Shown here: piece after piece, positions 14,818 to 54,431 of the stretch
Layout of the letters: each line of letters begins with the position of its first letter
Position numbering within the stretch: position 1 is the first letter of the stretch
Assembly: GCA_016206725.1 (NCBI GenBank)
Contig: JACQRA010000088.1
Location: 1,622-65,621, forward strand
Length of the DNA stretch: 64,000 bases
Direction of reading: 5' to 3'
DNA from: Candidatus Omnitrophota bacterium
GTDB taxonomy: Bacteria > Omnitrophota > Gorgyraeia > Aquiviventales > Aquiviventaceae
The notes under the pieces: generated by a model
The model's database searches: none
Told to the model about the DNA's origin: nothing
Seen by the model: the letters and a program-made list of their open reading frames with translations, nothing else
Program-made: the position numbers and the translations under genes

Positions 14818-14856
14818 ACCACGCGATCCCGAGATGTTTCGTGCGTCGAATCGTCT

Positions 14857-16830: not shown

Positions 16831-16833
16831 GCG

Positions 16834-21567: not shown

Positions 21568-21698
21568 TGACGCAGGAGTTTTTTGAATTCGATCTCGCGG
21601 CCGGTGGATTGGGGGCACATGGGGCATTTGAGATTGCAACCGCCGGCCATCTCCAGGTTAATCTGTTTAATCTCGCCGATCGCGTAGGGCGATCCCAT
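21561..21698 (-). CDS. 45-aa ORF with radical-SAM-like CxxxCxxC motif (MGSPYAIGEIKQINLEMAGGCNLKCPMCPQSTGREIEFKKLLRQW)
   Basis: Perfect GAGGAGG sits 7 nt upstream of the ATG, embedded in the end of the rpe-like gene. GC3 is about 70%. The stop overlaps the next gene's start (ATGGTGA). Too short for the ORF table. Confidence 0.45.
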   Translation of the reverse strand: MGSPYAIGEIKQINLEMAGGCNLKCPMCPQSTGREIEFKKLLRQW

Positions 21699-21702
21699 AC
21701 GG

Positions 21703-25959: not shown

Positions 25960-25977
25960 CTCCCAGCTCTCCTCATC

Positions 25978-37451: not shown

Positions 37452-38977
37452 CGCAGTAGGCTCGTCACGAACTTCTGCAGCAGGATCGGATCCACCGGGT
37501 CGCGGTTGCAGACGATCTCCACCGCCAGGGCGCCGACGCAATTGCCGATAAACCCGACCAACTCCACCGGAAGTCGCCGGTAGACGCAGGGCGAGGCGAT
37601 GGCAAAGAGCGCATCGCCCGCGCCGGTGCGATCGACCACTTTCGTCGCCAACGCCGGGGTCTCCACGGCCTGAGCTCCGTCCGAGAGGATCAGCGACCCG
37701 CCCGGCCCGCGGCTGACCAGCATGGCGCCGGTGCGAAGGCGGGCTTTCACCTGCTCGGCCATCATCGGCAAGGCCCCGTACTGGCTGCCGGCCGCCAACT
37801 TCAGCTCCGGTTCGTCAATGCAGACGAAATCGGCGCGGGCATACTTGGTCACGGGGTTGAAACCGAGATTCGCGCTGTTGCTCTGGCTGTTGAGGGCCAG
37901 GAACGCCCCGCAGGTGGAGAGGAACTGCCGGAGAGGTTCCGTCATCAGGCCGTGCCCGAAATCGCTGACGGCCACCATGTCATGCGCCGGCTGCAGGCGC
38001 TGCAATCGCTCGTGCAGCGTCCGCTCCACCGGCTCAGGAATCGGGGCATCGTCGAGGTACTCCACCTCAAACATCTTGGTGAGGAAGTTCGGCTCCAGGT
38101 AACGGCGCTTTCGAATCGTGGGACGTTCCTCCGTGATGACCACTTCCAACCGGACGTTCGATTTCAGTTTGGATCGAATGAACGCCTGTTGTGCGGCCTC
38201 GGCGCCGAGGGCCGTCAGGAGCGTCACCTCGCGGCAGAACCCCGCGAGGTGATTCGCCACGGCCAGCGAGCCGCCGGCGAAATGCTCTTCGGAGACGAAT
38301 CGCGTCGAGACAATCGTTTCTTTTGGCGACTTCCCCATCGGGAAACAGTAACAGTACTGATCCAGAATCGCCTCGCCAACGACCAGCACCCGCAAGTCCT
38401 CCAGGCGCTTGAGCGCGTCGATGACCTGCTCGGCGCGGTAGCGCTGACGGAAGGCCTGGAGGTACTGTTGGGTGTGGTCGGGATAGGCGCTGAAGAAGCG
38501 GTTGAGGATGTGGCTCGAGCTGAATGCCTCCTCGTTCGTGAAGACCAGCCGACCGCCCACCGCCTTGACCGCCGCTTCTTCATCCACGATCCGGCCCGTG
38601 ACATCTGAGGCGGCCTGCGCGTAGTCCTGGCCTTTCACATACACGTGGGGCTTGAGCCGCTGGATCGTTTCCACGGCGGTCGGCCACTCGTTGAGCGCCG
38701 CGTAATCCACGGTTTCCAAGGCCGCGATCGACTCCAGCCGGAGGCGTTGGTTGAACACCGGCCGGCCGGGGCCTTTACGGACGAATCGGTCCGGCGTCAC
38801 GGTGACTACCAGGAGATCGCCTTGTTTGCGCGCTTCCTTGAAATGGAGGATGTGCCCGGGATGCAGGAGGTCAAAGACACCGTGGCAGTGGACGACCCGA
38901 CGGCCGTCAGCGCGGGCCGCCTCGAGAATCCTCTGCAACTCGCCCAGTGCTTTGATCTTCTGGTCGTTGTCCATCAT
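37448..38977 (-). CDS. bifunctional cytidylyltransferase-like nucleotidyltransferase (HldE domain II/TagD-like) + PfkB-family sugar kinase (HldE domain I-like); domain order reversed relative to E. coli HldE
   Basis: N-terminal HCHGVFDLLHPGHILHFKEARKQGDLLVV (HxGH cytidylyltransferase fold). C-terminal PfkB motif DRTGAGDALFA. Confidence 0.7.
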   Translation of the reverse strand: MMDNDQKIKALGELQRILEAARADGRRVVHCHGVFDLLHPGHILHFKEARKQGDLLVVTVTPDRFVRKGPGRPVFNQRLRLESIAALETVDYAALNEWPTAVETIQRLKPHVYVKGQDYAQAASDVTGRIVDEEAAVKAVGGRLVFTNEEAFSSSHILNRFFSAYPDHTQQYLQAFRQRYRAEQVIDALKRLEDLRVLVVGEAILDQYCYCFPMGKSPKETIVSTRFVSEEHFAGGSLAVANHLAGFCREVTLLTALGAEAAQQAFIRSKLKSNVRLEVVITEERPTIRKRRYLEPNFLTKMFEVEYLDDAPIPEPVERTLHERLQRLQPAHDMVAVSDFGHGLMTEPLRQFLSTCGAFLALNSQSNSANLGFNPVTKYARADFVCIDEPELKLAAGSQYGALPMMAEQVKARLRTGAMLVSRGPGGSLILSDGAQAVETPALATKVVDRTGAGDALFAIASPCVYRRLPVELVGFIGNCVGALAVEIVCNRDPVDPILLQKFVTSLLR

Positions 38978-39978
38978 GAGATCATGGCCGCGGGTGAGAG
39001 ATGCTCAAACCACGTCCGCGTCGCCTGCTCAATCGTTTCCGGCGTCCAGACGGGCGCGTCGCGCCAATCCTCTAGATGCTCTAACAGACATCGCACACCG
39101 GTCTCAAAATTGACGCGAGGCTCCCAGCCCAACGTTCGGCGGATCTTTGTGGTGTCAGCGAACGTGCAGTCCGGCTCTGCCGGCCGTTTGGGAATGTGGA
39201 CGATCGGACCGCCGAGCAACTCCACGAGCCGGTTGACCGTCGAGGTGGAGCCGGAGCCGACGTTGAACACCTCGCCGGTGACCTCGGACGTCGCGGCCCG
39301 CAGGAAGGCTTCGACGACATCCGTCACGTAGGTAAAATCCCGCGTCTGCGAGCCGTCCCCTACGACGGTGAACGGCTGGCCCGCCAGCTTCTGCGCCAGA
39401 AACACGCCGAAGACGGCGCCGTAGGCGCCGGAGGTCCGGGCCCGTGGGCCGTACACATTAAAGAGGCGCAACGACACCACCGGCAACCGATATACCTGCG
39501 CCCAGTGGAGGACGAGCTGTTCGCCCAACCATTTCGTCAACGCGTACGGATATTGCGGCCGGATCGGCGCGTCTTCAGGCGTGGGGTGCACGTCTGGAAT
39601 CCCATAGCAGGATGAGGAAGCGGCGTAGAGCAACCGCTTGACGCCGACGGCACGGGCGGCCTCCAACATGGAGAGCGTCCCTTCCACGTTCGCCCGGTAG
39701 TACGCCCACGGCCGCTCAATCGAAGGGACGATATCCGCCAGGGCGGCCAGATGAAACACCCACTCGGTTCCCGCCATCAGCCGACGAACTTCCGGCTGGT
39801 TGGTCACGTCCACCTGATGGATCACCAGGCGCGTCTGGTCTGTGACGGACGCCAGATTGCTGAGGCGGCCGGTGGACAGGTTATCCAGCGCCACAACCTG
39901 ATGGCCATCGGCGAGTAGCCGCTCGACCAGATGACTCCCGATAAACCCTGCCCCTCCCGTCACCAGCGTGCGCATCAT
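38974..39978 (-). CDS. NAD-dependent epimerase/dehydratase (UDP-glucose 4-epimerase/UXS-like)
   Basis: [16 protein letters not shown] start and YALTK catalytic motif. Confidence 0.75.
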   Translation of the reverse strand: MMRTLVTGGAGFIGSHLVERLLADGHQVVALDNLSTGRLSNLASVTDQTRLVIHQVDVTNQPEVRRLMAGTEWVFHLAALADIVPSIERPWAYYRANVEGTLSMLEAARAVGVKRLLYAASSSCYGIPDVHPTPEDAPIRPQYPYALTKWLGEQLVLHWAQVYRLPVVSLRLFNVYGPRARTSGAYGAVFGVFLAQKLAGQPFTVVGDGSQTRDFTYVTDVVEAFLRAATSEVTGEVFNVGSGSTSTVNRLVELLGGPIVHIPKRPAEPDCTFADTTKIRRTLGWEPRVNFETGVRCLLEHLEDWRDAPVWTPETIEQATRTWFEHLSPAAMIS

Positions 39979-41024
39979 CAGACTGTTCCGGCCAGCGCGC
40001 GCGGCCGAGCCGCGGCGGCGCGAGCCGGAAGCGTTTCCTCGGACGATTCACAAAAGATGATCCGACTGCCGCCGGTCTCGAACCGGAACGGCACGTGCAA
40101 CACGCCCCGCAGCGCGGCTTGCACGCGATCCTGCTCCTCGGGCCGCACGAATAATAAGAGGAAGCCCCCACCGCCGGCGCCGAGGAGCTTGCCGCCGATG
40201 GCACCGGCGGCTCGCGCCGTCTCGTAGAGGGTGTCGATCTGCGGCGTGGAAATCCGGCTAGTCAGACTGCGTTTCACCTGCCAGCCCTCATGGAGCAACC
40301 GCCCGAACGCTGTGAGATCGATCTCTTCCTGTAGAATCCGAATGGCTTCATCCACCATCTGTTGCATCGCGCGCAGCTCCGCGGTCTTCTTCGGCGTCGC
40401 CTGGATCTGGTCGCGGGCGATGTCCGAGGCCGTGCGCGAAAACCCCGTAAAGAAGAGCATCAGGTGTTCCTGGAGGCGCGTACGCCGCGTCTCATCGATC
40501 ATGACCGGTGAGACCTGAAAACGGTGGTCGGTCGGAAAGTCAATCCGATTGAATCCCCCAAAGGCGGCGACGATCTGATCTTGTGACCCCACAGACTCTT
40601 TGAGCACCTCTTGCTCGATGTGGATCGCCTCGCGCGCGAGCTGCATCTTGGTGGGCATCCGACCCTTGAGGCCATGAAGGGCGTGCAAGAAACCAACCGT
40701 AAAAGCGGAACTCGACCCTAGGCCCGTCCTGGCGGGCAAGTCTCCGTCGTGGTGGATTTCCAGTCCTTCCGTGATGTGGAGAGCACGCAGCACCCCCCGG
40801 ACCGCGGAGTGCTCGATCTGATCGTTCGATGCCACCGACTCGACCTTCGAGTAGACGATCCGGCTTTTGTGTTCGAAGAACGGCGGCAGATACCGGCAGG
40901 TGAGGTAGCAGTATTTATCAATGGTCGTCGCCAACACCGCGCCTCCGTGCTCCTGGAACCACACCGGATAGTCGGTGCCGCCTCCAAAAAATGAGATCCG
41001 GTACGGCGTGCGGCTGATGATCAT
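39978..41024 (-). CDS. GHMP kinase, second HddA-like heptose-7-phosphate kinase paralog
   Basis: RISFFGGGTD, GLGSSSA and GAGGGGF motifs. Architecture is the same as 23299..24300. Confidence 0.7.
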   Translation of the reverse strand: MIISRTPYRISFFGGGTDYPVWFQEHGGAVLATTIDKYCYLTCRYLPPFFEHKSRIVYSKVESVASNDQIEHSAVRGVLRALHITEGLEIHHDGDLPARTGLGSSSAFTVGFLHALHGLKGRMPTKMQLAREAIHIEQEVLKESVGSQDQIVAAFGGFNRIDFPTDHRFQVSPVMIDETRRTRLQEHLMLFFTGFSRTASDIARDQIQATPKKTAELRAMQQMVDEAIRILQEEIDLTAFGRLLHEGWQVKRSLTSRISTPQIDTLYETARAAGAIGGKLLGAGGGGFLLLFVRPEEQDRVQAALRGVLHVPFRFETGGSRIIFCESSEETLPARAAAARPRALAGTV

Positions 41025-42538
41025 GCTGCGACGGGCGCGTGCTGCCTTGTCAGCTTATGCGACGCCATCTGTCGGATGTGCGCCACGGTTTCTTCGCCGA
41101 ACTTCTGGCGGATCATCTCCAGGTACCTGGACGAGGTGAAGTACGTCTCGAAGGCGTGATCGCGAAACCGCAACACCTCCGCCCCTGAGAGGTAGTTCGT
41201 CGGCAGCGGCAGGGTGTCCACCGCATGCTGGGAGTAGCCGGACCACCGCTGCGGCAGCGGCCAGCCATTCTGAATGGCCAGTTCATACAGCGCGCTTCCA
41301 GGGTAAGACATACAGGAATAGAAATTGGCGAACTCACAGTTGAGCTCGAGTGCCAGATCGAGTGTTTCCTGCATCGTGGCGAGGTCGTCTTCGGGCAAGC
41401 CGAACATGTAGTTGCCGATCACGTAGATGCCGGCCTCCCGCACCCGAGTGATGGTCTTGGCGATGTCCTCTTGATCGAAGCCTTTCTGCACGTGATCCCG
41501 TACCCGCGCGTTGGCCGCCTCGATCCCGAACGCCAGCCAGTGGAAACCGGCACGTTTGAGCACCTCCACCATCTCTTCCCGCACCGTATCGACTCGCGCG
41601 TAGGCCCAGATGTTCAGATCGTAGCCGCGCGCGATGATGGCTTCGCAGATTCCGAGGACATGCTTGGGGTGAAGCACAAACATCTCATCCGCGATCTTGA
41701 CGTGCCGTACCCCGTACTGATTGACCAGGGTGTCAAGCTGTGCCATCACGGATTCGATACTCCAGAATCTGTAGCTGTTCGTCGTGGCTTTCAGTCCAAG
41801 CTCCTTTTCCCCACTCTTGAACGGAATTTGGATACAGCAGAACTGACAATGGAACGGACACCCAAGGGTTGTATATAAACTCGCATACGGCTGACGCGAC
41901 GGCTCGCCGAGGGCATGCCAGTTATGCGCGCGGTATTTTTCCATCGGCAACAGATCCCACGCAACGCCAGGCATCTCGCCGGCGAGGTCTTTGAGCAGGG
42001 GTGCTGCGGGATTGTGCCGGATGGCGCCGTCTTCGCGATACCACAGGTCCCGAACCTTCTGCAGCTCGGGATGCGGGGTCTTCAACGCCTCGATCAATTC
42101 CCACATCGTGTAGAGCCCCTCGCCGCTGCAGACGAAATCCCCTGCCTCCTCGCGCAGGGTGCGCTCAGGCAGCGCGGCGACATGACCGCCAACTAAGAGC
42201 ACGGCCTGCTCGGGATGACGCCGCTTGATTGCGGTGCAGATCGCCCCGGCCGCGGTCATGTTCTGGGTCGAGGCAGAGGGCTGGTGGCCGTAGACGACCA
42301 CGGCGATCAGGCGCGGTTTCATCGCGATGGCTCGCGCTGCCGCCGCGTCGGGTGTGAGTTCTTCAGCTTCGGCATCGAGAACGGCCACGGAGCAGCCTTT
42401 CCGACGGAGAAACGTCGCCATCAATCCCGCCCACACCGGCGGCTCAATCGCGGTCAACGTCGTGCCAAGCCCCTGATAGACCTGGGCGCGACTCCCCGGA
42501 TTGATCAGCACCACGTCGAGGTCCGGCGCTGCCCTCAT
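41021..42538 (-). CDS. B12-binding (cobalamin-dependent) radical SAM enzyme
   Basis: N-terminal B12-binding-like domain (VVLINPG...), then CPFHCQFC, a CxxxCxxC motif. ATGA overlap with the UbiA stop. Confidence 0.75.
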   Translation of the reverse strand: MRAAPDLDVVLINPGSRAQVYQGLGTTLTAIEPPVWAGLMATFLRRKGCSVAVLDAEAEELTPDAAAARAIAMKPRLIAVVVYGHQPSASTQNMTAAGAICTAIKRRHPEQAVLLVGGHVAALPERTLREEAGDFVCSGEGLYTMWELIEALKTPHPELQKVRDLWYREDGAIRHNPAAPLLKDLAGEMPGVAWDLLPMEKYRAHNWHALGEPSRQPYASLYTTLGCPFHCQFCCIQIPFKSGEKELGLKATTNSYRFWSIESVMAQLDTLVNQYGVRHVKIADEMFVLHPKHVLGICEAIIARGYDLNIWAYARVDTVREEMVEVLKRAGFHWLAFGIEAANARVRDHVQKGFDQEDIAKTITRVREAGIYVIGNYMFGLPEDDLATMQETLDLALELNCEFANFYSCMSYPGSALYELAIQNGWPLPQRWSGYSQHAVDTLPLPTNYLSGAEVLRFRDHAFETYFTSSRYLEMIRQKFGEETVAHIRQMASHKLTRQHAPVAA

Positions 42539-43491
42539 CTCATGCGTTCTCCGTAGAGAATCACGCCGGCGGTCGCCACCCACAACAGCAGATTCACCAT
42601 CATCGGGCGGTCCGTCAGAATGCTCTGGGTCGGGTCTCCCCCTTCTTCCTTGTGATAGACCAAATAGAGGTAACGGAAGAACCCATACAAGACAAACGGG
42701 ACGGTCAGCAGCAGCCCTGGCGAACCAAATCGCCCGACGATCTCCTCGCTCACGGTGTAGAGCGTGTAGCTGACCAGTGCGGAAGCCGTGATAATGCCGA
42801 CCATCGCATCGAGAAACGGCAGAGGGTAATCCGTCAGGACTTGCCGGTGATTCGGCGCGCCGTCCTCGAGGAGCACGAGCTCATGGCGACGTTTGCAGAG
42901 GGCGATGAACAACGCCAACAACGTCGTGCAAATCAGCACCCACGCGCTCATCGTCACTTGGAGCACGACGGCCCCGGCAAGCACCCGCAAGAGATAGCCG
43001 GCTGCGACCACGAAAACATCCAGGATGACGGCATGCTTGAGCCTCCAGGCATAGAGCAGGTTCAGTCCCCAATAGGTTGAGAGGACAAGGGCTAAGGACA
43101 CGCTCAAGGCGGCCCCACCCAACAGACTCAGCAGCAACAACCCCACAACCGCGGCTCGGGCGATCCCCACACGCAGCAGCCCCGCGGCCAGCGGGCGGCG
43201 GCGCTTTTCCGGATGGAGGCGGTCCTGTGCGCAATCGGTGAGATCATTCAAGAGGTAGATCGAACTGCTGGCGAGGCAGAAACATCCACAGGCCGCGAGG
43301 CTGCGCAGGAGTGCGTCCAGGGAAAAGACGTGCGGCGAAAAGAAGAGCGGAGCCAACACGAAGAAATTTTTCACCCACTGCGTGGGTCGCAGCTCAACCC
43401 AGAGGGCCCGCAGCGGACCTGGTGGGGGAGGCCGGTTCGGCTCGGCCTGGCTCACAGGCGTTTCCAAGACCAGCGAATCAGGAGACATCAT
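42535..43491 (-). CDS. UbiA-family prenyltransferase, decaprenyl-phosphate phosphoribosyltransferase-like
   Basis: NDLTDCAQDRLHPEKRRRPLAAG motif (NDxxDxxxDR...HP.K..RPL), about 8 TM helices, 318 aa. Confidence 0.7.
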   Translation of the reverse strand: MMSPDSLVLETPVSQAEPNRPPPPGPLRALWVELRPTQWVKNFFVLAPLFFSPHVFSLDALLRSLAACGCFCLASSSIYLLNDLTDCAQDRLHPEKRRRPLAAGLLRVGIARAAVVGLLLLSLLGGAALSVSLALVLSTYWGLNLLYAWRLKHAVILDVFVVAAGYLLRVLAGAVVLQVTMSAWVLICTTLLALFIALCKRRHELVLLEDGAPNHRQVLTDYPLPFLDAMVGIITASALVSYTLYTVSEEIVGRFGSPGLLLTVPFVLYGFFRYLYLVYHKEEGGDPTQSILTDRPMMVNLLLWVATAGVILYGERMR

Positions 43492-43494
43492 CGG

Positions 43495-44541
43495 TTAAAA
43501 GGGTCCTTTGAACCGCTGCTCATGGCTGTAGAACGATTCGCCGCTCAGATCGGCCGGCTCAAGCTTCAGCATGTGCTCCGCGGTGCGGAGGATGCTGACC
43601 GCGTTGGGATAAAACAGGTTCTCCAGCGGCCGCGTGGTGGGACAGGGGACCTGCGCAAATCCGAGCCGTTCAACCGCCCGCTCCAAGATCTCGAAGCAGC
43701 GATGGCTGATGAGCGCCGCCGCCTCCGCCGCAAACCCGCAGAAGGTCCAGTCGTAGTCGGCGACGATGCACCGGCGCGTCCGCTTCACCGAATCGACCAG
43801 CGTCGCCTCATCCAACGGCACCACGCTACGCACATCCACGACCTCCAGCTCGACACCCCGCTTGGCCATGACCTCGGCGGCCTTCATCGCCTCGACCGTC
43901 ATCCACGACGTCGCGATCACCGTCAGGTCCTTGCCGAATCGCCGCACCGTCGCCTCGCCCAACGGCAGACGGCGGCTGCGATCCACCTCGCCCTCCACGT
44001 CATACAGCCATCGATGCTCCAGGAAGATGACGGGATTGTCATCGCGAATCGCGGCGCGCAAGAGACTGTAGGCATCCTGGGGCGTGGTGGGCAGAACCAC
44101 TTTCAAACCTGGAAAATGGCTAAAGAGACCGTGGAGCGACTTGCTGTGTTGGGCCGACTGCCCCCAACCCCGCCCAATGACCGCCCGGATCACCAGCGGC
44201 AGGCGAAGCTGCCCACCGCTCATGTAGCGGAGACTCGAAAGCATGTTGCCGATCTGGTTCATCGCCAGCAGCATAAAATCCGCCCGGATATGCACATGCA
44301 CCGGCCGAAGACCGGAGACCGCAGCCCCGATCGCCACACCGGTCATGCTCTCTTCAGAGAGTGGGGTGATAAAGCACCGCCGGTCTCCAAACCGCTCTAC
44401 CAGTCCTGCGGTGGAGCCGAAGATGCGCTTGTGGTCCGAGACGTCCAGGCCGAACACGAACACCGAGGGATCCGCGTCCATCTCATCGGCTAACGCGGCC
44501 GCGAGGGCATCCCGAAAGGTGGTGCGAGTCGCTAGGCCCAT
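43495..44541 (-). CDS. thiamine-diphosphate-dependent dehydrogenase E1 component, beta subunit (transketolase C-terminal-like)
   Basis: 348 aa. VFVFGLDV ... TPLSEESMTGVAIGAA matches the E1 beta pattern. Confidence 0.75.
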   Translation of the reverse strand: MGLATRTTFRDALAAALADEMDADPSVFVFGLDVSDHKRIFGSTAGLVERFGDRRCFITPLSEESMTGVAIGAAVSGLRPVHVHIRADFMLLAMNQIGNMLSSLRYMSGGQLRLPLVIRAVIGRGWGQSAQHSKSLHGLFSHFPGLKVVLPTTPQDAYSLLRAAIRDDNPVIFLEHRWLYDVEGEVDRSRRLPLGEATVRRFGKDLTVIATSWMTVEAMKAAEVMAKRGVELEVVDVRSVVPLDEATLVDSVKRTRRCIVADYDWTFCGFAAEAAALISHRCFEILERAVERLGFAQVPCPTTRPLENLFYPNAVSILRTAEHMLKLEPADLSGESFYSHEQRFKGPF

Positions 44542-45566
44542 ACGTCGGTTGAGAGTTCAGCAGGGGACGCAAACGGCGCCTGTTGAGCCGCTCGAACGCT
44601 GCGAGTCAGTTGTTCGTCCACCGACAGGCGCAGCGCCTCCAGCTCGTGGTCGGTGACACCATCTTCACGCAGTGCTTGCTCAAAGCGCCGGACTGGATCG
44701 AGACGGGCTAACTCGTCCGGCGACGGTTTCTGGCGATACCCCGCGTGAAAATCTTCCAGGGGACCCACATGCTCGAGGAATCGGAAATAGGTCAGGTGCA
44801 AGAACCCCGGACGCGGATCGGTTTCCATCCGCTCAAGGAGTGTGTGAGCGGAGGTCATGACCGTCCGGAGATCGTACCCCGCCCCGCTCATGACATGACA
44901 GCGAAATCCCCGCACGACATCTGGAATGGAGCGGAATCCTTGCCGCTGGCTGGTCGGGATATGGATGGCCAGGTCGTTGTCTTCACACACAAAGAGGATG
45001 CGCAGCCGCTTCAAACAGGCGAAGTTCAGACTTTCCCAAAACGCGCCCTCTTCCACGGCGCCGTCCCCAAAGAACGACACCACCAGCGTCGGCTCATCGC
45101 GGTACTGATGAGCCAGCGCCGCACCCACCGCGAGCGGAATGGTGGTGGCGACCACTGCGGAGGTGGCGATCAACCCGTGCTGAGGAGCCGCCAGGTGCAT
45201 GGAGCCGGCTTTCCCTTTGGCCGCACCAATGGCCTTGCCATAGAGCTCGCCGAAGAACCGGTCGGTCTCGCCGGTCATCGCCAGATACCACGCGTGATTC
45301 CTGTAGGTCCCAAACGCCCTGGCGCCAGGCGGCGCCGCGTGGCAGACCCCCACCGCAATGGCTTCCCCCCCGATGCCGAGGTGGACCGGTGTCTTCATGT
45401 CATTGGTGGGGTATTCTTCGCGGATCTTCTCTTCCGCGCGGCGCACCAACAACAGCTTCCGGTACAGCGCCAAGGCTTCCGCGTGCTTCACGGAGGCCTC
45501 ACGGGCCGCTGGCGCCTCACGCAAAGTAGGAGGCGACGCTTTCTGCAGCATAGGCGATGTCGTCAT
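44532..45566 (-). CDS. thiamine-diphosphate-dependent dehydrogenase E1 component, alpha subunit
   Basis: LYRKLLLVRRAEEKI and GDGAVEEGAFWESLNFA (the ThDP-binding GDG...N motif). The exact start is uncertain. Confidence 0.75.
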   Translation of the reverse strand: MTTSPMLQKASPPTLREAPAAREASVKHAEALALYRKLLLVRRAEEKIREEYPTNDMKTPVHLGIGGEAIAVGVCHAAPPGARAFGTYRNHAWYLAMTGETDRFFGELYGKAIGAAKGKAGSMHLAAPQHGLIATSAVVATTIPLAVGAALAHQYRDEPTLVVSFFGDGAVEEGAFWESLNFACLKRLRILFVCEDNDLAIHIPTSQRQGFRSIPDVVRGFRCHVMSGAGYDLRTVMTSAHTLLERMETDPRPGFLHLTYFRFLEHVGPLEDFHAGYRQKPSPDELARLDPVRRFEQALREDGVTDHELEALRLSVDEQLTRSVRAAQQAPFASPAELSTDVWA

Positions 45567-46674
45567 CCGTCAAGTACTGATGCACGCCGAAGTGCAACCC
45601 CGTCTCTCCGATTCGCTCGGCGACGGGGAATTGCCCGAGACGATAGCCGAGGAAGGCCAAGGCGCGATGTTGGGTCGGCAATGATCCGAAGAGCGTCTTG
45701 CATTGAATCCCTCGGCCCTCCAAATGCTCATAGAGTCCTTCGATGGAACGCGACGCGTCTCGCAACACCAACGGAAAGGCATGGGGACAGATCACCTCAC
45801 CAGGCCCGTCCGGGTACAGGATCAGACGATCCTCCATCGGACGCAACAGCTCCCACAACCGCGCCAGATGGCGACGCCGAACGGCGAAGGTCCGATCAAA
45901 TAGCTCCAAGCCCTCAAGGCCGATCGCGGCTTCGAGGTCGTTCATCTTCGAGTTGAATCCCACTCGATCAAAGTGGAAGGCGGGTTGCCCGTCTCGGCGA
46001 CCATGGGTGCGAATCGAGCGGCACAGCAACGCCCACTCGTCCTCGCTGGCGGCGATCATCCCCCCCTCCCCGCTACAGATCATGTGAGCCGCATAAAAGC
46101 TGAAGAGCGCCATGTCGCCGAAAGAACCGACGACCTGGCCGTTCAACGTCGCCCCGTGCGCTTCGCAGCAATCTTCAATCACCGCTCGACGATGGCGCTT
46201 GGCGATGGCCAGGATGTCTCTCATTCGGCACGGCTTACCCATCGTGTGGACCACCTGGATCGCGCGCGTGTGAGGCGTGATGGCCGCTCCAATCAGGGCG
46301 GGATTGATAGTGAGCGTCTCCAGTTCGACGTCGACGAATTTCGGCGTGAGGCCGGCGGCTAGAATGCAGTTGGCGGTCGCCACAAACGCCAGCGCCGGCG
46401 TGATCACCTCATCGCCGCGCGCAGCCCCGCGCTCCAACAACGCACTCATCGCCACGATGCCGGCATCCGTCCCGGAGCTGGTTGCGACCGCGTGGCGATA
46501 GCCGAACGCCCTAGCAAACTCTCGCTCGAAGCGCTGCACATTCAGCCCTTCCGAAACCCAATGGCGGTCAAGCGCGTCGTTCAGCCATCGTCTGGCGGTC
46601 TCGCCGATTTCAATGTGACCGAAGGTTATTCGATAGGGCGTTTTGGGAGCCACACTCGTCACGGCCGTGTGCAT
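45517..46674 (-). CDS. DegT/DnrJ/EryC1/StrS sugar aminotransferase
   Basis: From the internal Met MHTAV...; GDEVITPALAFVATANCI and FSFYAAHMICSGEGG motifs. The ORF-table N-terminal 99 aa is out-of-frame overlap. Confidence 0.8.
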   Translation of the reverse strand: MHTAVTSVAPKTPYRITFGHIEIGETARRWLNDALDRHWVSEGLNVQRFEREFARAFGYRHAVATSSGTDAGIVAMSALLERGAARGDEVITPALAFVATANCILAAGLTPKFVDVELETLTINPALIGAAITPHTRAIQVVHTMGKPCRMRDILAIAKRHRRAVIEDCCEAHGATLNGQVVGSFGDMALFSFYAAHMICSGEGGMIAASEDEWALLCRSIRTHGRRDGQPAFHFDRVGFNSKMNDLEAAIGLEGLELFDRTFAVRRRHLARLWELLRPMEDRLILYPDGPGEVICPHAFPLVLRDASRSIEGLYEHLEGRGIQCKTLFGSLPTQHRALAFLGYRLGQFPVAERIGETGLHFGVHQYLTDDDIAYAAESVASYFA

Positions 46675-46675: not shown

Positions 46676-47383
46676 CTAATGGCTGCGCGGCTCGGCCAGC
46701 GAGATGGCCTCGGAGGTCTCGGGCAGCGATACCGCCGAGGCGTGGTTGGCCAACATGCGGTCAAGCGCCGCGGTTTGAACGTTCGGATTCGCAAACCCGG
46801 ATTCAGGCAGGACGATGAGACGCTCCATCGGCACCCCCAGGGCAGCCAGGCGGTCCAGGCCGCCGTCACCCCAGCGCAGCGAGGCGACAACCATCCGGTC
46901 GTAGGCGAAGGCGCCGATCTCGGCGACGGAGCGAACGGAACGACCAAGAAATTGCTGGCGGCTTGGGGCATCGTCCACTACCCCCACGAGCTCAAGTCCC
47001 ATTTCGTGAATCGTGAGAAAGGCAATCTCGGCCAACTCGTTGGTGCCGCACAGCACGATCCGCCGGTGGCCGGCCTTCGCGACCTGTGTGAGCTGTTCGC
47101 GCAGAAAGGAGCGGACGCGGCCGTAGAGCTGCAGAGAGTAGTGGATGAATTCGTACGTCAGGCGGGACTTTTCGAGGATGCCTTGCGGCGTGATCAGGTA
47201 CCGGATCCGGCTGCGCTTGGTCCCCGTAATCTTGATGTAGCCTTTCTTGGCCAGGCGGCGCAGCATCAGGTTGGTCAGACCCAGCGCCGCGCCGATCCGT
47301 TGGGAAAGTTCCCGCTGGGTGGCATCCGGCGAGTTGGTCACCTCGTTCAGCAGATGCATGTCCCGGTATGTGCTTTGCTTCAT
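46676..47383 (-). CDS. winged-helix transcriptional regulator with C-terminal Rossmann-like (CoA/nucleotide-binding) domain
   Basis: N-terminal MarR/wHTH-like TQRELSQRIGAALGLTNLMLRRLAKKGYI and C-terminal RIVLCGTNELAEIA. It is the first gene after a 132-nt promoter gap. Confidence 0.6.
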   Translation of the reverse strand: MKQSTYRDMHLLNEVTNSPDATQRELSQRIGAALGLTNLMLRRLAKKGYIKITGTKRSRIRYLITPQGILEKSRLTYEFIHYSLQLYGRVRSFLREQLTQVAKAGHRRIVLCGTNELAEIAFLTIHEMGLELVGVVDDAPSRQQFLGRSVRSVAEIGAFAYDRMVVASLRWGDGGLDRLAALGVPMERLIVLPESGFANPNVQTAALDRMLANHASAVSLPETSEAISLAEPRSH

Positions 47384-51169: not shown

Positions 51170-52618
51170 TCATGGCGCAGAGATGACAGGACCGCCTGAG
51201 GGGATGGCTTTCGGATTGGCGGTATAGCGACGGGAGTCGACGTATTTGCCCGTGATCTTGTACATCCCAAGTAAATTGAACACCCTCCGGAAGAAATACC
51301 GGTATTGATCCCATCTGATGCGCGTGAGCAAACAGAAGATGGTGCTCGGCTTGAGGTAAAATTTCCGGTTGGCACGGCGTTGGATCGTTGAGAGCTCCTC
51401 AGAGCTGACCTTGGCCATTTTTGGATTAAACGTATAAAAATTAAATGTCGACCAATCCACCTCTTCTCCCTGAGCATACTCCTGTTTCCACAGCTCGTAG
51501 AGCTCCGTCCCGGGAAGCGGCGTCACCTTGGTAAAATTGGCACGAGAGAGCGGAAGGGAGAGCGCAAAGTCCACCGTTTGTTGAATCTCTTCGCGAGTTT
51601 CTGTCGGAAATCCAATCATGAAAAACCCGCAGGACTCGATCCCGGCATCGCTGACCCACCCGACGACTTTTCGAACCAGCTCGACATTGAGTCGCTTCTT
51701 GACGAGGTCGAGGATCCGTTGGTTGGCGGATTCGATCCCCAGGGACATGAGGTAACAGCCGGCACGTTTCATGATCGCCAGCATTTCCGGATCCAACCGA
51801 TCGATCCGCACCCCGTTGGGGAGACTCCAGATGACGTCGAGCTTCTTGCGGATCAGGGCCTCGCAGAACTCGAACACCCGATCTCGTTTGATCGTGAAGT
51901 TATCATCCTCAATTTGAATTTCACGCACGCCGTATTGCTCATGCAGCATCGCGATCTCGCTGACGACGGCGTTGACGCTTCGCCAGCGCATCTTTTTGCC
52001 GGCGGTGATCGGGGCGCTGCAATAGGTGCAGGAATACGGACAGCCTCGGGAGGTGATGATGGGGGCGAGGGGAAACCGCCGCGCAATCATCCCATGCGGG
52101 GCTTTCGGGTAGCTTCGCGGGTCAATGAGATCCCAGGCGGGTTGGCCGAAATCATCGATGTCAGGATAGAAGGTCGGTTTGGCGCAGGTTCGAAAGGGTG
52201 CGCCATCTTTCCAATACACCAGTCCCTCAATGTCTGATGGAGCCTTCCCTTCGACCAGCTCGTTGAGCAGCACCTCCCCTTCTGCCATACACGCAAAATC
52301 AGCTCCTGACTGGACGAGCGCTTGTTCAGGATTGGCAATGGTATGGGGTCCACCGATCACGGTCGGCAGGCCGAATGATTTGGCCCGTTTGACTTCTTCA
52401 ACCATTTCCGGGAAGTAGGTCGTCATCGAGGTCAACCCGACCCAATCGTATTCCTGAGGGTCGTAGCGCACGTCTTCCCGAAGGCCATCGATCGCGCGGA
52501 CCGAGTGCCCTCGTTTCAGGAGGGCGGACGCGAGGTAGCCAAGCCCGAGATGGGGTGCGACGATATATCCGTTATACTTGGGGCTGATGAGGAGCACTCT
52601 GGCCATTGCGAGACTCAC
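51170..52618 (-). CDS. B12-binding (cobalamin-dependent) radical SAM enzyme
   Basis: N-terminal B12-binding-like domain (VLLISP...), then SRGCPYSCTYC, a CxxxCxxC motif. 482 aa. Confidence 0.75.
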   Translation of the reverse strand: MSLAMARVLLISPKYNGYIVAPHLGLGYLASALLKRGHSVRAIDGLREDVRYDPQEYDWVGLTSMTTYFPEMVEEVKRAKSFGLPTVIGGPHTIANPEQALVQSGADFACMAEGEVLLNELVEGKAPSDIEGLVYWKDGAPFRTCAKPTFYPDIDDFGQPAWDLIDPRSYPKAPHGMIARRFPLAPIITSRGCPYSCTYCSAPITAGKKMRWRSVNAVVSEIAMLHEQYGVREIQIEDDNFTIKRDRVFEFCEALIRKKLDVIWSLPNGVRIDRLDPEMLAIMKRAGCYLMSLGIESANQRILDLVKKRLNVELVRKVVGWVSDAGIESCGFFMIGFPTETREEIQQTVDFALSLPLSRANFTKVTPLPGTELYELWKQEYAQGEEVDWSTFNFYTFNPKMAKVSSEELSTIQRRANRKFYLKPSTIFCLLTRIRWDQYRYFFRRVFNLLGMYKITGKYVDSRRYTANPKAIPSGGPVISAP

Positions 52619-54430: not shown

Positions 54431-54431
54431 G

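What the first reader, a model, noticed from the sequence alone, without database searches (positions are those of the whole stretch)
41021..45566. ThDP-dependent E1 alpha/beta pair together with two cobalamin radical SAM enzymes: branched-chain or C-alkylated sugar chemistry
A split E1 (alpha 44532..45566, beta 43495..44541) is sandwiched between sugar aminotransferases and a B12-radical SAM (41021..42538). It lacks any E2/E3 partner. A second B12-radical SAM lies at 51170..52618. E1-type pairs in sugar clusters (avilamycin AviB1/AviB2 for eurekanate is the known example) transfer a hydroxyethyl/acetyl two-carbon unit onto a keto-sugar. Class B radical SAM enzymes C-methylate unactivated carbons in aminoglycoside sugars (GenK/GenD1-like). 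The locus therefore likely builds a C-branched and/or C-methylated deoxy-amino sugar. Such sugars are rare in cell-surface glycans.
Basis: inference. Interest (0 to 1): 0.55.

Follow-up and report, generated by a model that had tools for sequence, protein, structure and literature searches.

The report
Sugar-branching E1 pair in heptose module
An orphan thiamine-dependent E1 alpha/beta enzyme pair sits inside a gene module, conserved across many bacterial phyla, that most likely turns GDP-heptose into an unknown nine-carbon, carbon-branched cell-surface sugar, with one vitamin-B12-type radical enzyme as a regular partner.

Summary
E1 alpha (44532-45566), E1 beta (43495-44541) and two B12-domain radical SAM genes (41021-42538, 51170-52618) are real. 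No E2 or E3 occurs in the window or in about 90 related loci.

The E1 pair belongs to a conserved module found from Omnitrophota to cyanobacteria, Azospirillum and candidate-phyla bacteria. The module joins four parts:
- GDP-heptose synthesis: a HddA-like kinase, a GmhB-HddC fusion and GmhA.
- A close homolog (about 58% identity) of the structure 6VO6, which I take to be the Campylobacter heptose C4-dehydrogenase Cj1427.
- A DegT-family protein directly upstream of E1 alpha. It carries His in place of the catalytic Lys, the mark of a 3-dehydratase rather than an aminotransferase.
- The first radical SAM enzyme, which is fused to that DegT protein in one relative.

The best reading is a yersiniose-like logic on a heptose. 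A GDP-4-keto-3-deoxy-heptose receives a two-carbon acetyl branch from pyruvate through the E1 pair and is then tailored by the radical SAM enzyme. Methylation by that enzyme is unproven. It matches no named subfamily.

The second radical SAM enzyme shows no conserved link to E1.

I rate this a new variant of a known kind.

The parts
44532..45566 (-). E1 alpha subunit (ThDP/diphosphate-binding), orphan alpha-ketoacid-dehydrogenase-type; proposed C-C carboligase subunit
   Evidence: Pfam E1_dh 2.6e-39. NCBIfam PDH_E1_alph_y 222.8 bits, below the cut-off of 393.85. Best PDB hit is human PDH E1 alpha, E 5e-25. GDG..EDN motif present. 100% identical to an Omnitrophota MAG protein. Overlaps the upstream dehydratase gene by 50 nt and E1 beta by 10 nt.
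43495..44541 (-). E1 beta subunit (pyrimidine-binding plus C-terminal domain)
   Evidence: Transket_pyr 1e-30 and Transketolase_C 7e-29. NCBIfam PDH E1 beta 295.7 bits, below the cut-off of 321. A homolog lies next to E1 alpha in 65-78 of 84 related loci.
45517..46674 (-). DegT-family, PMP-dependent sugar 3-dehydratase-like protein (His197 replaces the catalytic Lys); no Fe-S motif, so of the ColD mechanistic type
   Evidence: The alignment to GDP-perosamine synthase 3bn1/3dr7 puts His at the position of the PLP Lys; that position is Ala in the entry 3dr4. 31 of 31 E1-linked homologs have His, while 7 of 7 other DegTs have Lys. Only one Cys is conserved. Start ATG at 46674, just after the HTH gene stop. 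Best NCBIfam hit is RfbH, 223 bits, below the cut-off of 423.
41021..42538 (-). rSAM1: class-B (B12-binding domain plus radical SAM) enzyme, a recurrent member of the E1 module; reaction unknown
   Evidence: Pfam; CxxxCxxC motif. More than 120 homolog clusters at 67% identity or above. Three of three contexts fetched through its homologs carry E1 alpha/beta plus His-DegT, and one is a DegT::rSAM fusion. AF2 model pLDDT 79; Foldseek matches TsrM, AprD4, MgmA, OxsB, CysS and TokK.
39978..41024 (-). GHMP kinase of the HddA/WcbL type (D-glycero-D-manno-heptose 7-phosphate kinase-like); the most conserved partner of E1 alpha/beta
   Evidence: Best PDB hits are 3k85, 4usm/4usk and 4n3o, with E values from 1e-38 to 3.5e-33. 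NCBIfam HddA 142.8 bits, below the cut-off of 600. Present in 50-54 of 84 E1 loci at about 57% identity.
55382..56314 (-). [quoted passage not shown]
   Evidence: About 58% identical over the full length to PDB 6VO6/6VO8, E 6e-115. Co-occurs with His-DegT in 21 of 25 loci against 2 of 37, p 1e-10. Enzymology is from PMC10680097. That 6VO6 is Cj1427 rests on my own knowledge.
56311..57255 (-). GDP-L-fucose-synthase-like SDR (epimerase/reductase acting on GDP-keto-sugars)
   Evidence: NCBIfam GDPFucSynFcl 416.7 bits, below the cut-off of 500. A homolog sits directly upstream of E1 alpha in L085 and L087, and directly after E1 beta in RS-1 pDMC1.
57219..58619 (-). HddC-like nucleotidyltransferase fused to GmhB-type heptose-bisphosphate phosphatase
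   Evidence: Pfam NTP_transferase plus HAD. NCBIfam GmhB 178.3 bits against a cut-off of 178, and HddC 143 bits against 300. Homologs occur in L086 and L087 at 51-56% identity.
28309..28950 (-). GmhA-like SIS sedoheptulose-7-phosphate isomerase (supplies the heptose pathway; lies with a second heptose gene set)
   Evidence: SIS_2 2e-13. NCBIfam gmhA 81.5 bits, below the cut-off. SIS genes are part of the compact modules L085 and L086.
38974..39978 (-). GalE/WbpP-like SDR; its homologs sit immediately upstream of E1 alpha in the second module type and may be a C4 oxidoreductase or epimerase
   Evidence: Pfam Epimerase 2e-65. Best PDB hits are UDP-hexose 4-epimerases. Found in 31 E1 loci. It has an SSSCYG motif rather than the dehydratase TDE motif.
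46676..47383 (-). HTH_24-domain protein, a conserved first gene of the Omnitrophota/Planctomycetia version of the cassette (fused to an NTP-transferase in L003)
   Evidence: HTH_24 1.9e-8. Homologs at 42-74% identity in 8 or more loci.
42535..43491 (-). UbiA-family polyprenyl-phosphate phosphoribosyltransferase-like gene inserted in the cassette (accessory, lineage-specific)
   Evidence: NCBIfam NF008977 273.9 bits, above the cut-off of 234. Homologs at 65-71% identity only in L001, L005, L006 and L015.
51170..52618 (-). rSAM2: second class-B radical SAM; not a conserved partner of E1; flanked by GT-C (PMT_2) genes
   Evidence: Pfam. No ortholog above 33% identity in 84 E1 loci. Homolog contexts L088, L089, L090 and L095 lack E1 and the heptose genes. 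The close relative L096 keeps the order PMT_2, rSAM2, PMT_2.

Best explanation
The E1 alpha/beta pair is the carbon-carbon bond-forming enzyme of a conserved nucleotide-heptose tailoring module in a cell-surface glycan locus.

Proposed route:
1. [quoted passage not shown] This rests on homology.
2. A Cj1427 homolog oxidises C4, recycling its bound NADH with alpha-ketoglutarate. This rests on strong homology.
3. The His-type DegT protein removes the C3 hydroxyl and gives GDP-4-keto-3-deoxy-heptose. This is inferred from the Lys-to-His signature.
4. E1 alpha/beta decarboxylates pyruvate on ThDP and adds the resulting acetyl-anion equivalent to the C4 ketone. The product is a tertiary alcohol with a 4-C-acetyl branch, a nine-carbon sugar. 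This is inferred by analogy with AviB1/B2, Pau11/12 and KbDH-alpha/beta, by functional analogy with YerE, and from gene context.
5. rSAM1 then tailors the product, either by methylating an unactivated carbon or by a radical rearrangement or ring closure. This step is unknown.
6. The GDP-fucose-synthase-like SDR epimerises or reduces the sugar before a glycosyltransferase installs it.

rSAM2 and the UbiA/GT-C genes belong to other parts of the same large glycan island.
For: **Orphan status.** No E2 or E3 was found in the window. None was found in 1.35 Mb of related loci or among the conserved neighbour clusters.

**Conserved context across more than 15 phyla**. Homologs next to E1 alpha include E1 beta, the GHMP kinase (50-54 of 84 loci), His-DegT (31), the Cj1427-like SDR (24), an NTP-transferase (22) and rSAM1 (13-19).

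**Independent retrieval through rSAM1 homologs.** This gave the same compact module three times out of three: NTP-transferase, HAD, SIS, NUDIX, GHMP, SDR, E1 alpha, E1 beta, DegT(His), rSAM. One of the three carries a DegT::rSAM fusion.

**Cultured carriers.** The same module occurs on plasmids of S. magneticus RS-1 and of Azospirillum species.

**Individual components.**
- The His replacement of the catalytic Lys is seen in 31 of 31 E1-linked DegTs.
- The Cj1427-like SDR is about 58% identical to 6VO6 and is tightly coupled to His-DegT (p 1e-10).
- The kinase is closest to the heptose kinases 3k85, WcbL and 4n3o.
- L-2-hydroxyglutarate-oxidase-like genes occur in several loci (at least 6 in the gene maps) and in RS-1 pDMC1, where the gene is annotated lhgO. 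This fits the alpha-KG/L-2HG cycle of Cj1427 (PMC10680097).

**Literature.**
- GDP-D-glycero-4-keto-3-deoxy-heptose has been made in vitro with Cj1427 plus a C3-dehydratase (PMC10680097, PMC10440746).
- E1-type 'alpha-KADH2' enzymes add C2 branches from pyruvate to keto-sugars at C3 or C4, shown in vitro for KbDH-alpha/beta (PMC12247030, PMC4753412).
- An aldo-keto reductase, Pau7, reduces such a branch (PMC4753412). An AKR cluster is a frequent neighbour here, in 18 loci.
Against: - No biochemical data exist for any member of this E1 clade.
- Direct sequence comparison with AviB1/B2, Pau11/12 or KbDH was not possible.
- Sequence identity does not separate functions. A Streptomyces orphan E1 pair that is 40% identical sits in an NRPS/PKS context with no sugar genes.
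- Both catalytic His residues used by E2-dependent E1s are retained, so independence from E2 cannot be read from the sequence.
- The His-DegT is closer to perosamine synthase (184 bits) than to ColD (136 bits), so its dehydratase activity is inferred from one residue.
- In the window the module is split into two blocks about 10 kb apart.
- The donor (pyruvate), the site of attack (C4) and the order of the E1 and rSAM1 steps are all inferred.
- My ORF clustering uses greedy longest ORFs in GC-rich DNA and misses genes, so the co-occurrence counts are lower bounds.
Confidence: 0.6

Rival explanations
1. The pair is an ordinary metabolic pyruvate or acetoin dehydrogenase E1 whose E2 and E3 are encoded elsewhere, and it merely happens to lie in a glycan island.
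For: The best profile and PDB matches are PDH E1 alpha and beta. The catalytic His residues are conserved. The window covers only 64 of 67.5 kb of one MAG contig, so the rest of the genome is unseen.
Against: The scores fall below the PDH equivalog cut-offs. The same E1 clade is flanked by the same sugar genes in about 90 loci from more than 15 phyla, with overlapping start and stop codons, and never by E2 or E3.
Confidence: 0.03
2. The E1 pair works in the heptose pathway but does different ThDP chemistry. It might use another 2-oxo acid donor (for example alpha-ketoglutarate, which the neighbouring enzymes cycle, or hydroxypyruvate). It might attack another position. Or it might cleave rather than form a C-C bond.
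For: Donor and acceptor are not determined by any result here. YerE-type enzymes in LPS pathways use donors of C3 to C8 (PMC9306805). Alpha-KG and glutamate turn over in the flanking steps (PMC10680097). In the second module type E1 co-occurs with a split transketolase and lacks the 3-dehydratase.
Against: All characterised or genetically studied E1-type sugar-branching enzymes give C2 branches from pyruvate (PMC12247030). The heterotetrameric E1 families are not known to accept alpha-ketoglutarate (my knowledge).
Confidence: 0.17
3. The E1 pair generates an activated acetyl or acyl unit that ends up as an O- or N-acyl decoration or on a carrier protein, as orphan E1 pairs in some polyketide/NRPS clusters appear to do, rather than as a C-branch.
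For: An orphan E1 pair of similar identity (40%) lies beside an NRPS condensation-domain protein, an ACP and ketosynthases on Streptomyces griseofuscus pSGRIFU1. Several Lys-type DegT aminotransferases and a GNAT are present elsewhere in the window.
Against: No carrier protein or acyltransferase is among the conserved neighbours. The E1-linked DegT is the His type, which would give a keto product rather than an amine.
Confidence: 0.06
4. One reading: both B12 radical SAM enzymes are GenK/GenD1-like C-methyltransferases acting on the same sugar as E1.
For: Both have the class-B architecture and intact cluster motifs. The rSAM1 model superposes on the methylases TsrM, MgmA, CysS and TokK.
Against: Neither passes any methylase subfamily cut-off. 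The nearest solved sequence relative is the dehydratase AprD4, and the model superposes equally well on AprD4 and OxsB. rSAM2 has no conserved association with E1 or the heptose genes.
Confidence: 0.15

Closest known systems
AviB1/AviB2 (avilamycin), Pau11/Pau12 (paulomycin), AlmDI/DII (aldgamycin), KbDH-alpha/beta (kibdelomycin): the 'alpha-KADH2' sugar C-branching enzymes of actinomycete antibiotics
   Same: A split E1 alpha/beta architecture with no E2 or E3, encoded among nucleotide-sugar tailoring genes. The proposed reaction is the same: decarboxylation of pyruvate and transfer of an acetyl equivalent onto a keto-sugar to give a tertiary alcohol. Follow-up tailoring of the branch is also shared, and AKR neighbours are seen here as with Pau7.
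   Different: Here the genes sit in a cell-surface glycan island of Gram-negative, candidate-phyla and cyanobacterial lineages, not in an antibiotic cluster. The likely substrate is a GDP-linked heptose rather than a dTDP- or NDP-hexose or pentose. There is a dedicated class-B radical SAM partner. Sequence relatedness to these enzymes could not be tested.
YerE/YerF pathway to yersiniose in Yersinia O-antigen, and ErwE and MMAR_2332 for erwiniose and caryophyllose
   Same: The same pathway logic in a surface glycan: a 4-keto sugar, then a PMP-dependent 3-dehydratase, then ThDP-dependent C4 branching, then reduction.
   Different: YerE-type enzymes are single-chain, FAD-binding members of the decarboxylase (acetolactate-synthase-like) family and act on CDP-3,6-dideoxy-4-keto-glucose. 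Here the ThDP enzyme is of the E1 alpha/beta type, the 3-dehydratase lacks the Fe-S motif of RfbH, and C6 is probably not deoxygenated.
Campylobacter jejuni capsular GDP-heptose modification pathways (Cj1427 C4-dehydrogenase, HS:5 C3-dehydratase, Cj1430, Cj1428)
   Same: An HddA-type kinase, HddC and GmhB, a Cj1427 homolog at about 58% identity and a GDP-fucose-synthase-like reductase. The predicted intermediate, GDP-4-keto-3-deoxy-heptose, has been made with the Campylobacter enzymes.
   Different: Campylobacter has no ThDP or radical SAM step. Its C3-dehydratases are close ColD homologs (62-67% identity), whereas the His-DegT here is a separate clade nearer to perosamine synthase.
Class-B (cobalamin-domain) radical SAM enzymes: the methylases GenK, Fom3, TokK, CysS, TsrM and MgmA; the non-methylases AprD4, OxsB, HpnJ and BchE
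   Same: Domain order, cluster motif and overall fold (TM 0.58-0.66 to TsrM, AprD4, MgmA, OxsB, CysS and TokK).
   Different: No subfamily model is reached. The best profile hits are HpnJ and BchE at about a quarter of their cut-offs. The substrate would be a nucleotide-linked branched heptose, which is unprecedented for this class.
Pyruvate and acetoin dehydrogenase E1 (heterotetrameric alpha2beta2)
   Same: Fold, ThDP motif and the catalytic Glu and His residues. These are the best PDB and NCBIfam matches.
   Different: Scores lie below the equivalog cut-offs, no E2 or E3 partner is present, and the context is a conserved sugar pathway.

Membership tests
Heterotetrameric ThDP-dependent E1 (alpha-KADH2 superfamily) | E1_dh alpha subunit with the GDG-X(25-30)-N ThDP motif, plus a beta subunit with Transket_pyr and Transketolase_C domains, encoded by adjacent genes | tested here: met
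   The two genes overlap by 10 nt.
Pyruvate or acetoin dehydrogenase complex E1 (metabolic) | Score above the equivalog cut-off, and a cognate E2 (lipoyl acyltransferase) and E3 in the operon or genome | tested here: not met
   E1 alpha 222.8 against a cut-off of 393.85, and E1 beta 295.7 against 321. No E2 or E3 in the window or in about 90 loci. The rest of the genome is not visible.
Sugar C-branching alpha-KADH2 enzymes (AviB1/B2 type) | An orphan E1 alpha/beta encoded with enzymes that generate an NDP-keto-sugar acceptor | tested here: met
   Conserved linkage to a Cj1427-like C4-dehydrogenase, a His-type DegT and GDP-heptose genes.
Sugar C-branching alpha-KADH2 enzymes (AviB1/B2 type) | Phylogenetic clustering with AviB1/B2, Pau11/12 or KbDH | not testable with these tools
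   The reference sequences could not be obtained. Krug et al. 2024 is not held.
Sugar C-branching alpha-KADH2 enzymes (AviB1/B2 type) | Pyruvate-dependent acetyl transfer onto a ketone acceptor | not testable with these tools
   This needs an enzyme assay.
PMP-dependent NDP-4-keto-sugar 3-dehydratases (ColD / RfbH-E1 type) | DegT fold with His replacing the Schiff-base Lys | tested here: met
   His197 aligns with the PLP Lys position of perosamine synthase. It is conserved in 31 of 31 E1-linked homologs and in L085-L087, L092 and L093.
PMP-dependent NDP-4-keto-sugar 3-dehydratases (RfbH-E1 subtype) | A four-Cys [2Fe-2S] motif and an E3 reductase partner | tested here: not met
   Only one conserved Cys, and no reductase among the conserved neighbours. 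The protein is therefore ColD-like in mechanism if it is a dehydratase.
PMP-dependent NDP-4-keto-sugar 3-dehydratases (ColD clade) | Close sequence relation to ColD | tested here: not met
   ColD 2gms scores 136 bits against 184 bits for perosamine synthase. This is a separate His-bearing clade.
Cj1427-type GDP-heptose C4-dehydrogenase | Homolog-level similarity over the full length to the solved enzyme | tested here: met
   About 58% identity, E 6e-115, residues 2-309 against 4-311 of 6VO6. That 6VO6 is Cj1427 rests on my own knowledge.
HddA/WcbL heptose-7-phosphate kinases (GHMP) | GHMP N and C domains, closest to the characterised heptose kinases, and score above the NCBIfam HddA cut-off | tested here: inconclusive
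   The closest PDB relatives are heptose kinases, with E values from 1e-38 to 3.5e-33. The HddA model score is 142.8 against a cut-off of 600.
Class-B (cobalamin-dependent) radical SAM enzymes | An N-terminal B12-binding Rossmann domain, a CxxxCxxC radical SAM barrel and the class-B fold | tested here: met
   This holds for both rSAMs by sequence and for rSAM1 also by fold.
Class-B radical SAM C-methyltransferases (GenK/GenD1/Fom3-like) | Membership of a methylase subfamily, or methyl transfer with formation of SAH and 5'-dA | tested here: inconclusive
   No subfamily cut-off is reached. The nearest sequence in the PDB is AprD4. The fold is equally close to methylases and non-methylases. Activity cannot be tested here.
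HpnJ (hopanoid-associated radical SAM) | Score above the TIGR03471 cut-off, and hopanoid gene context | tested here: not met
   151.1 and 179 bits against a cut-off of 577.6. No hopanoid genes are nearby.

The most novel reading that the evidence does not exclude
The module may make a carbocyclic nine-carbon sugar of the caryose type. [quoted passage not shown]

Every difference between caryose and a heptose maps onto one gene of the module:
- The 3-deoxy group needs C4 oxidation by the Cj1427-like enzyme plus the His-DegT dehydratase, with the C6 hydroxyl kept.
- The quaternary C4 carrying C8 and the C9 methyl is an acetyl branch installed by E1 alpha/beta.
- The C7-C8 bond would be a radical ring closure by rSAM1. 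This would be a net isomerisation: a C7 radical adds to the branch carbonyl.

The two best profile matches of rSAM1, HpnJ and BchE, both form five-membered carbocycles. If this is correct, a class-B radical SAM enzyme would build a cyclopentane ring onto a nucleotide sugar, and such sugars would be widespread in uncultivated bacteria.
Probability: 0.12. Interest if true: 0.85.

Novelty: new variant of a known kind. Interest (0 to 1): 0.6.

Why it matters
E1-type ThDP enzymes that branch sugars are described in the review I read only from actinomycete antibiotic clusters. In that same review, the branching enzymes listed for surface glycans are of the unrelated YerE type.

This locus and its roughly 90 relatives indicate that the E1 type is also a widespread tool of cell-envelope glycan synthesis. 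The relatives come from Omnitrophota, Nitrospira, Planctomycetota, Elusimicrobiota, candidate-phyla bacteria, Pelagibacterales, cyanobacteria and Azospirillum. In these loci the E1 pair is coupled to the GDP-heptose chemistry worked out in Campylobacter and to a dedicated B12-type radical SAM enzyme.

The module predicts a family of undescribed C9 or larger branched, and possibly carbocyclic, heptose-derived sugars on many environmental bacteria. It offers a new carboligase that makes tertiary alcohols on nucleotide sugars. It also offers a radical SAM enzyme with a nucleotide-sugar substrate.

Cultured carriers make all of this testable: S. magneticus RS-1 plasmid pDMC1, A. lipoferum 4B plasmid AZO_p6 and a cyanobacterium named as strain BLCC-F154.

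Tried and rejected
1. **Direct comparison with AviB1/B2, Pau11/12 or KbDH.** No reference sequences were reachable. The key paper (Krug et al., Angew. Chem. 2024) is not held.
2. **Actinomycete sugar-type E1 from the plasmid collection.**
   - The S. griseofuscus pair sits in an NRPS/PKS context.
   - The S. albogriseolus pair has no homologs of the window's sugar genes within 15 kb.
   - Neither could serve as a sugar-branching reference. Both show that about 40% identity does not define function.
3. **Subfamily classification of the two rSAMs.** NCBIfam, the PDB sequence search and an AF2 model with Foldseek were all tried. Both proteins are class B. No assignment as methylase or non-methylase is possible.
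4. **Reading E2-independence from catalytic residues.** The alpha His266 and the beta AQHS His are conserved, so this is uninformative.
5. **Treating rSAM2 as part of the E1 system.** Rejected after the context survey.
6. **Assuming a classical 4,6-dehydratase feeds the pathway.**
   - The SDRs in the compact modules are a Cj1427-like dehydrogenase and a GDP-fucose-synthase-like enzyme.
   - C6 deoxygenation is therefore not supported for this module type.
7. **Confirming from the literature that 6VO6 is Cj1427.**
   - PMC7509852 is not held, and a text search for the PDB code found nothing relevant.
   - The identification rests on my own knowledge and on the entry's distinctive molecule name.
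8. **The bradyrhizose gene-cluster paper.** It mentions no ThDP or radical SAM genes, so this lead was dropped.
9. **Searches for prior descriptions.** Looking for E1 genes in O-antigen or capsule clusters, or for heptose together with radical SAM and ThDP, found nothing in the held library.

Full report
**Observation.** The window is a GC-rich (about 62%) stretch in which all the genes I tested lie on the minus strand. It is nearly a whole 67.5-kb contig of a Candidatus Omnitrophota MAG.

- E1 alpha, 44532-45566: Pfam E1_dh, E 2.6e-39.
- E1 beta, 43495-44541: Transket_pyr and Transketolase_C.
- rSAM1, 41021-42538, and rSAM2, 51170-52618: each has a B12-binding domain plus a Radical_SAM domain and an intact CxxxCxxC motif.

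Genes in this stretch overlap by a few bases: the DegT gene and E1 alpha by 50 nt, E1 alpha and beta by 10 nt, and several pairs by the 4-nt ATGA overlap. This suggests one operon.

Pfam scans of every sizeable minus-strand ORF, plus two long plus-strand ORFs, found no E2, E3 or lipoyl domain.

Two details of the description need correcting.
- A UbiA-family gene lies between E1 beta and rSAM1. It scores above NCBI's cut-off for decaprenyl-phosphate phosphoribosyltransferase.
- The DegT gene touching E1 alpha is not an ordinary aminotransferase (see below).

**The E1 pair belongs to a conserved module.** E1 alpha has hundreds of close homologs in metagenomes. A scan of one genome per species found 578 relatives, and 80 loci were fetched. 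They come from Omnitrophota, Nitrospira, Planctomycetia, Deltaproteobacteria, Elusimicrobia, Verrucomicrobia, Chloroflexi, Saccharibacteria and other candidate phyla, a Nanoarchaeota-labelled bin, and alpha-proteobacteria including Pelagibacteraceae and SAR116.

I called ORFs in all loci, clustered them and mapped the window's genes onto the clusters. The recurrent neighbours of E1 alpha are:

| Neighbour | Loci (of 84) |
|---|---|
| E1 beta | 65-78 |
| GHMP kinase (about 57% identity to 39978-41024) | 50-54 |
| GDP-fucose-synthase-like SDRs | 34 |
| GalE-like SDR (like 38974) | 31 |
| DegT protein like 45517 | 31 |
| SDR like 55382 | 24 |
| NTP-transferase | 22 |
| rSAM1 | 13-19 |
| A different, 691-aa B12-rSAM | 14 |
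| Aldo-keto reductase | 18 |
| RmlC-like epimerase | 15 |
| Split transketolase | 10-13 |
| SIS isomerase | 9 |

Methyltransferases and a NUDIX hydrolase also recur.

No E2- or E3-like cluster appears. The E2 and E3 signature motifs are absent from 1.35 Mb of six-frame translation, apart from one spurious hit. These counts are lower bounds, because my greedy ORF caller misses genes in GC-rich DNA.

**Independent confirmation through rSAM1.** rSAM1 has more than 120 homolog clusters at 67% identity or above. Three contexts fetched through those homologs all show the same compact module. One is from a cyanobacterium named as strain BLCC-F154. The gene order is:
- NTP-transferase
- HAD phosphatase
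- SIS isomerase
- NUDIX (in one of the three contexts)
- GHMP kinase
- SDR
- E1 alpha
- E1 beta
- DegT
- B12-rSAM

In one context the DegT and the rSAM are fused into a single 909-aa protein (P0210).

The module also occurs on plasmids of cultured bacteria:
- Solidesulfovibrio magneticus RS-1 pDMC1. It carries rSAM, NUDIX, kinase, E1 alpha, E1 beta, GDP-fucose synthase, DegT, SDR, nucleotidyltransferase, a GT-C glycosyltransferase and lhgO.
- Azospirillum lipoferum 4B AZO_p6, A. ramasamyi, A. argentinense and A. thermophilum.

**What the partners are.**

*The E1-adjacent DegT.* It aligns over its whole length with GDP-perosamine synthase, but it has His (FSFYAAHMICSGEGG) where the synthase has its Schiff-base Lys. 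The position is identified unambiguously, because the PDB entry 3dr4 differs from 3dr7 only by Ala at that residue. All 31 E1-linked homologs carry His. All 7 other DegT proteins in the same alignment, including the window's own 58576 and 35291 genes, carry Lys. The plasmid and cyanobacterial copies also carry His.

A His at this site is the hallmark of the PMP-dependent 3-dehydratases ColD and RfbH/E1 (established knowledge). Only one Cys is conserved, so the protein is of the ColD type and lacks the Fe-S cluster. It is nevertheless a separate clade, closer to perosamine synthase than to ColD.

*The SDR at 55382-56314.* It is about 58% identical over its full length (E 6e-115) to PDB 6VO6/6VO8. 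To my knowledge that entry is Cj1427 of Campylobacter jejuni. [quoted passage not shown]

This SDR and the His-DegT co-occur almost perfectly: 21 of 25 loci against 2 of 37, Fisher p 1e-10. Several loci, including RS-1 pDMC1, also encode an L-2-hydroxyglutarate-oxidase-like flavoprotein. That enzyme would close the alpha-KG cycle.

*The heptose-activation genes.*
- The GHMP kinase is nearest to the heptose kinases 3k85, WcbL and 4n3o.
- Gene 57219-58619 is an HddC-like transferase fused to GmhB.
- Gene 56311-57255 is GDP-fucose-synthase-like, at 416.7 bits.
- A GmhA-like SIS gene lies at 28309-28950.

Together these genes point to GDP-heptose as the starting sugar. The predicted intermediate is GDP-D-glycero-4-keto-3-deoxy-heptose. 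That compound has already been made in vitro from GDP-heptose with Cj1427 plus the Campylobacter C3-dehydratase (PMC10680097; see also PMC10440746).

**Mechanism proposed for E1.** A 4-keto-3-deoxy nucleotide sugar is exactly the type of acceptor that the ThDP enzyme YerE acetylates at C4 in yersiniose biosynthesis (PMC9306805, PMC4753412).

E1 alpha/beta-type enzymes, the 'alpha-KADH2' superfamily, do the equivalent C2 branching from pyruvate in several antibiotic pathways: avilamycin (AviB1/B2), paulomycin (Pau11/12), aldgamycin, kosinostatin and kibdelomycin. KbDH-alpha/beta has been shown in vitro to couple pyruvate to ketones (PMC12247030). The branch ketone is then reduced, for example by the aldo-keto reductase Pau7 (PMC4753412), or it is methylated, oxidised or transaminated.

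I therefore propose that the E1 pair here decarboxylates pyruvate and adds the acetyl-anion equivalent to C4 of the GDP-keto-heptose. The product would be a 4-C-acetyl, nine-carbon sugar.

What is shown:
- the domain content;
- the orphan status;
- the conserved linkage to enzymes that would make the acceptor.

What is inferred:
- the donor;
- the position of attack;
- the reaction itself.

Confidence is about 0.6.

**The radical SAM enzymes.** rSAM1 is a genuine module member, significantly linked to the His-DegT (p 0.009) and once fused to it. Its chemistry is open.
- No NCBIfam subfamily model is reached. HpnJ scores 151 bits against a cut-off of 577.6, followed by BchE, ApyD and others.
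- The only clear PDB sequence relative is AprD4, a diol dehydratase.
- An AlphaFold model (pLDDT 79, pTM 0.80) superposes about equally well on the methylases TsrM, MgmA, CysS and TokK and on the non-methylases AprD4 and OxsB.
- Some E1 modules lack rSAM1, for example the A. thermophilum plasmid. It is therefore a tailoring step rather than a core step.

rSAM2 is different.
- No ortholog above 33% identity exists in the 84 E1 loci.
- Its homologs lie in unrelated neighbourhoods: unknown proteins; a GT2 with an amine-oxidase-like gene in Rokubacteria and Pirellulales; and a marine contig carrying a proteasome gene.
- A 92%-identical relative keeps only the local order PMT_2, rSAM2, PMT_2.

rSAM2 should not be counted as part of the E1 system.

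**Rivals.**
- *A metabolic PDH or acetoin E1.* This is very unlikely given the conserved context.
- *Other ThDP chemistry within the same pathway.* A different donor or position remains open, especially in the second module type. That type has a GalE-like SDR directly before E1, no 3-dehydratase, and often a split transketolase. Split transketolases have themselves been proposed to install hydroxyacetyl branches in miharamycin and amipurimycin (PMC12247030).
- *An acyl-donor role.* Orphan E1 pairs beside NRPS/PKS genes in Streptomyces suggest it. The conserved neighbours here give it no support.

**Comparison and novelty.** The individual parts are known: E1-type sugar branching in antibiotics, yersiniose logic in LPS, and Cj1427 with a C3-dehydratase in Campylobacter. 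Their combination does not appear in the literature I could search. That combination is an E1-type brancher acting on a GDP-heptose, with a dedicated class-B radical SAM enzyme, in surface-glycan loci across many phyla.

The 2025 review places E1-type branching only in secondary metabolites and YerE-type branching in LPS (PMC12247030). I could not read the 2024 in-silico survey it cites for about 120 such gene clusters, so some overlap cannot be excluded. I rate this a new variant of a known kind.

[quoted passage not shown] It differs from a heptose by four features, and each matches a gene of the module:
- It is 3-deoxy with the C6 hydroxyl retained. This fits the Cj1427-like enzyme plus the His-DegT.
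- It has a quaternary C4 bearing a two-carbon unit that ends in a methyl group. This fits E1 alpha/beta.
- It has a C7-C8 bond. This would fit a radical ring closure by rSAM1.
- Its stereochemistry is adjusted. This fits the GDP-fucose-synthase-like SDR.

This is speculation, at a probability of about 0.12, but it is directly testable.

Noticed in passing
window 42535-43491 and 52628-54508 (also L001, L005, L006, L015, L096; RS-1 pDMC1 L093 16467-17993): A UbiA-family gene scores above the cut-off for decaprenyl-phosphate phosphoribosyltransferase. GT-C (PMT_2) glycosyltransferases are nested in or next to the E1 cassette in Omnitrophota and Nitrospira. The pairing recalls the lipid-linked ribose/arabinose donor system of mycobacterial arabinan and of Pseudomonas pilin arabinosylation.
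   Followed up: partly
window 18761-20686, in-frame TAG at 19684-19682: A gene encoding a GNAT acetyltransferase fused to a DegT aminotransferase is interrupted by a single in-frame TAG inside the conserved DegT N-terminal region (…DLTWVA*AAPVCYVGARPVLVDID…). It could be a pseudogene, an assembly error or a read-through.
   Followed up: partly
L086 10001-12730 (protein P0210): A natural fusion of the His-type DegT with the rSAM1-type B12 radical SAM enzyme in one 909-aa protein. This suggests the two act consecutively or as a complex.
   Followed up: partly
window 9592-12092; compare L094 (A. lipoferum AZO_p6) 12862-22328: A pyruvate kinase and an ATP sulfurylase lie inside the glycan island. 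The Azospirillum plasmid that carries the same E1 module has an APS kinase, sulfotransferases and a PEP-utilising enzyme. This hints at a sulfated glycan and possibly at a local pyruvate or PEP supply.
   Followed up: no
L094 25745-28010 (A. lipoferum 4B AZO_p6): Genes for methylthioadenosine phosphorylase and MtnA isomerase sit between the rSAM1 and E1 parts of the module. This is consistent with salvage of 5'-deoxyadenosine produced by a radical SAM enzyme.
   Followed up: no
L003, L005, L012, L013, L021, L057, L065; L093 20380-20945 (lhgO): L-2-hydroxyglutarate-oxidase-like FAD enzymes recur in E1 loci. They would recycle the L-2-hydroxyglutarate made by a Cj1427-type dehydrogenase. As far as I know, this link has not been noted for heptose pathways.
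   Followed up: partly
window 21703-28950: A second, separate heptose gene set: a GmhA-like SIS gene, a second HddC-GmhB fusion (27020-28312), a second HddA-like kinase (23299-24345), an RmlD-like reductase and a ribulose-phosphate 3-epimerase. A GC dip to 0.56 at 24-26 kb coincides with a 406-aa ORF that has no Pfam match.
   Followed up: no
window 3283-8643: Nonulosonic-acid genes (NeuB, a UDP-GlcNAc 2-epimerase-type gene and a CMP-transferase) lie next to a HisH/HisF-like amidotransferase pair. This is another rare-sugar pathway in the same island.
   Followed up: no
L090 128-1750 (protein P0314) and window 51170-52618: rSAM2 is 54% identical to a protein on a marine contig that also carries a proteasome alpha-type gene, so the contig is probably archaeal. 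In Rokubacteria and Pirellulales its relatives sit with a GT2 and an amine-oxidase-like gene. The function is unknown.
   Followed up: partly
window 37448-38977: An HldE-like bifunctional protein with the two domains in reversed order: cytidylyl/adenylyl-transferase at the N-terminus and PfkB kinase at the C-terminus. It scores far below the HldE cut-off.
   Followed up: no
L091 11998-17528 (Streptomyces griseofuscus pSGRIFU1): An orphan E1 alpha/beta pair, 40% identical to the window's, lies directly upstream of an NRPS condensation-domain protein and near ACP, ketosynthase and thioesterase genes. This is an example of a use for orphan E1 pairs outside sugar chemistry.
   Followed up: partly
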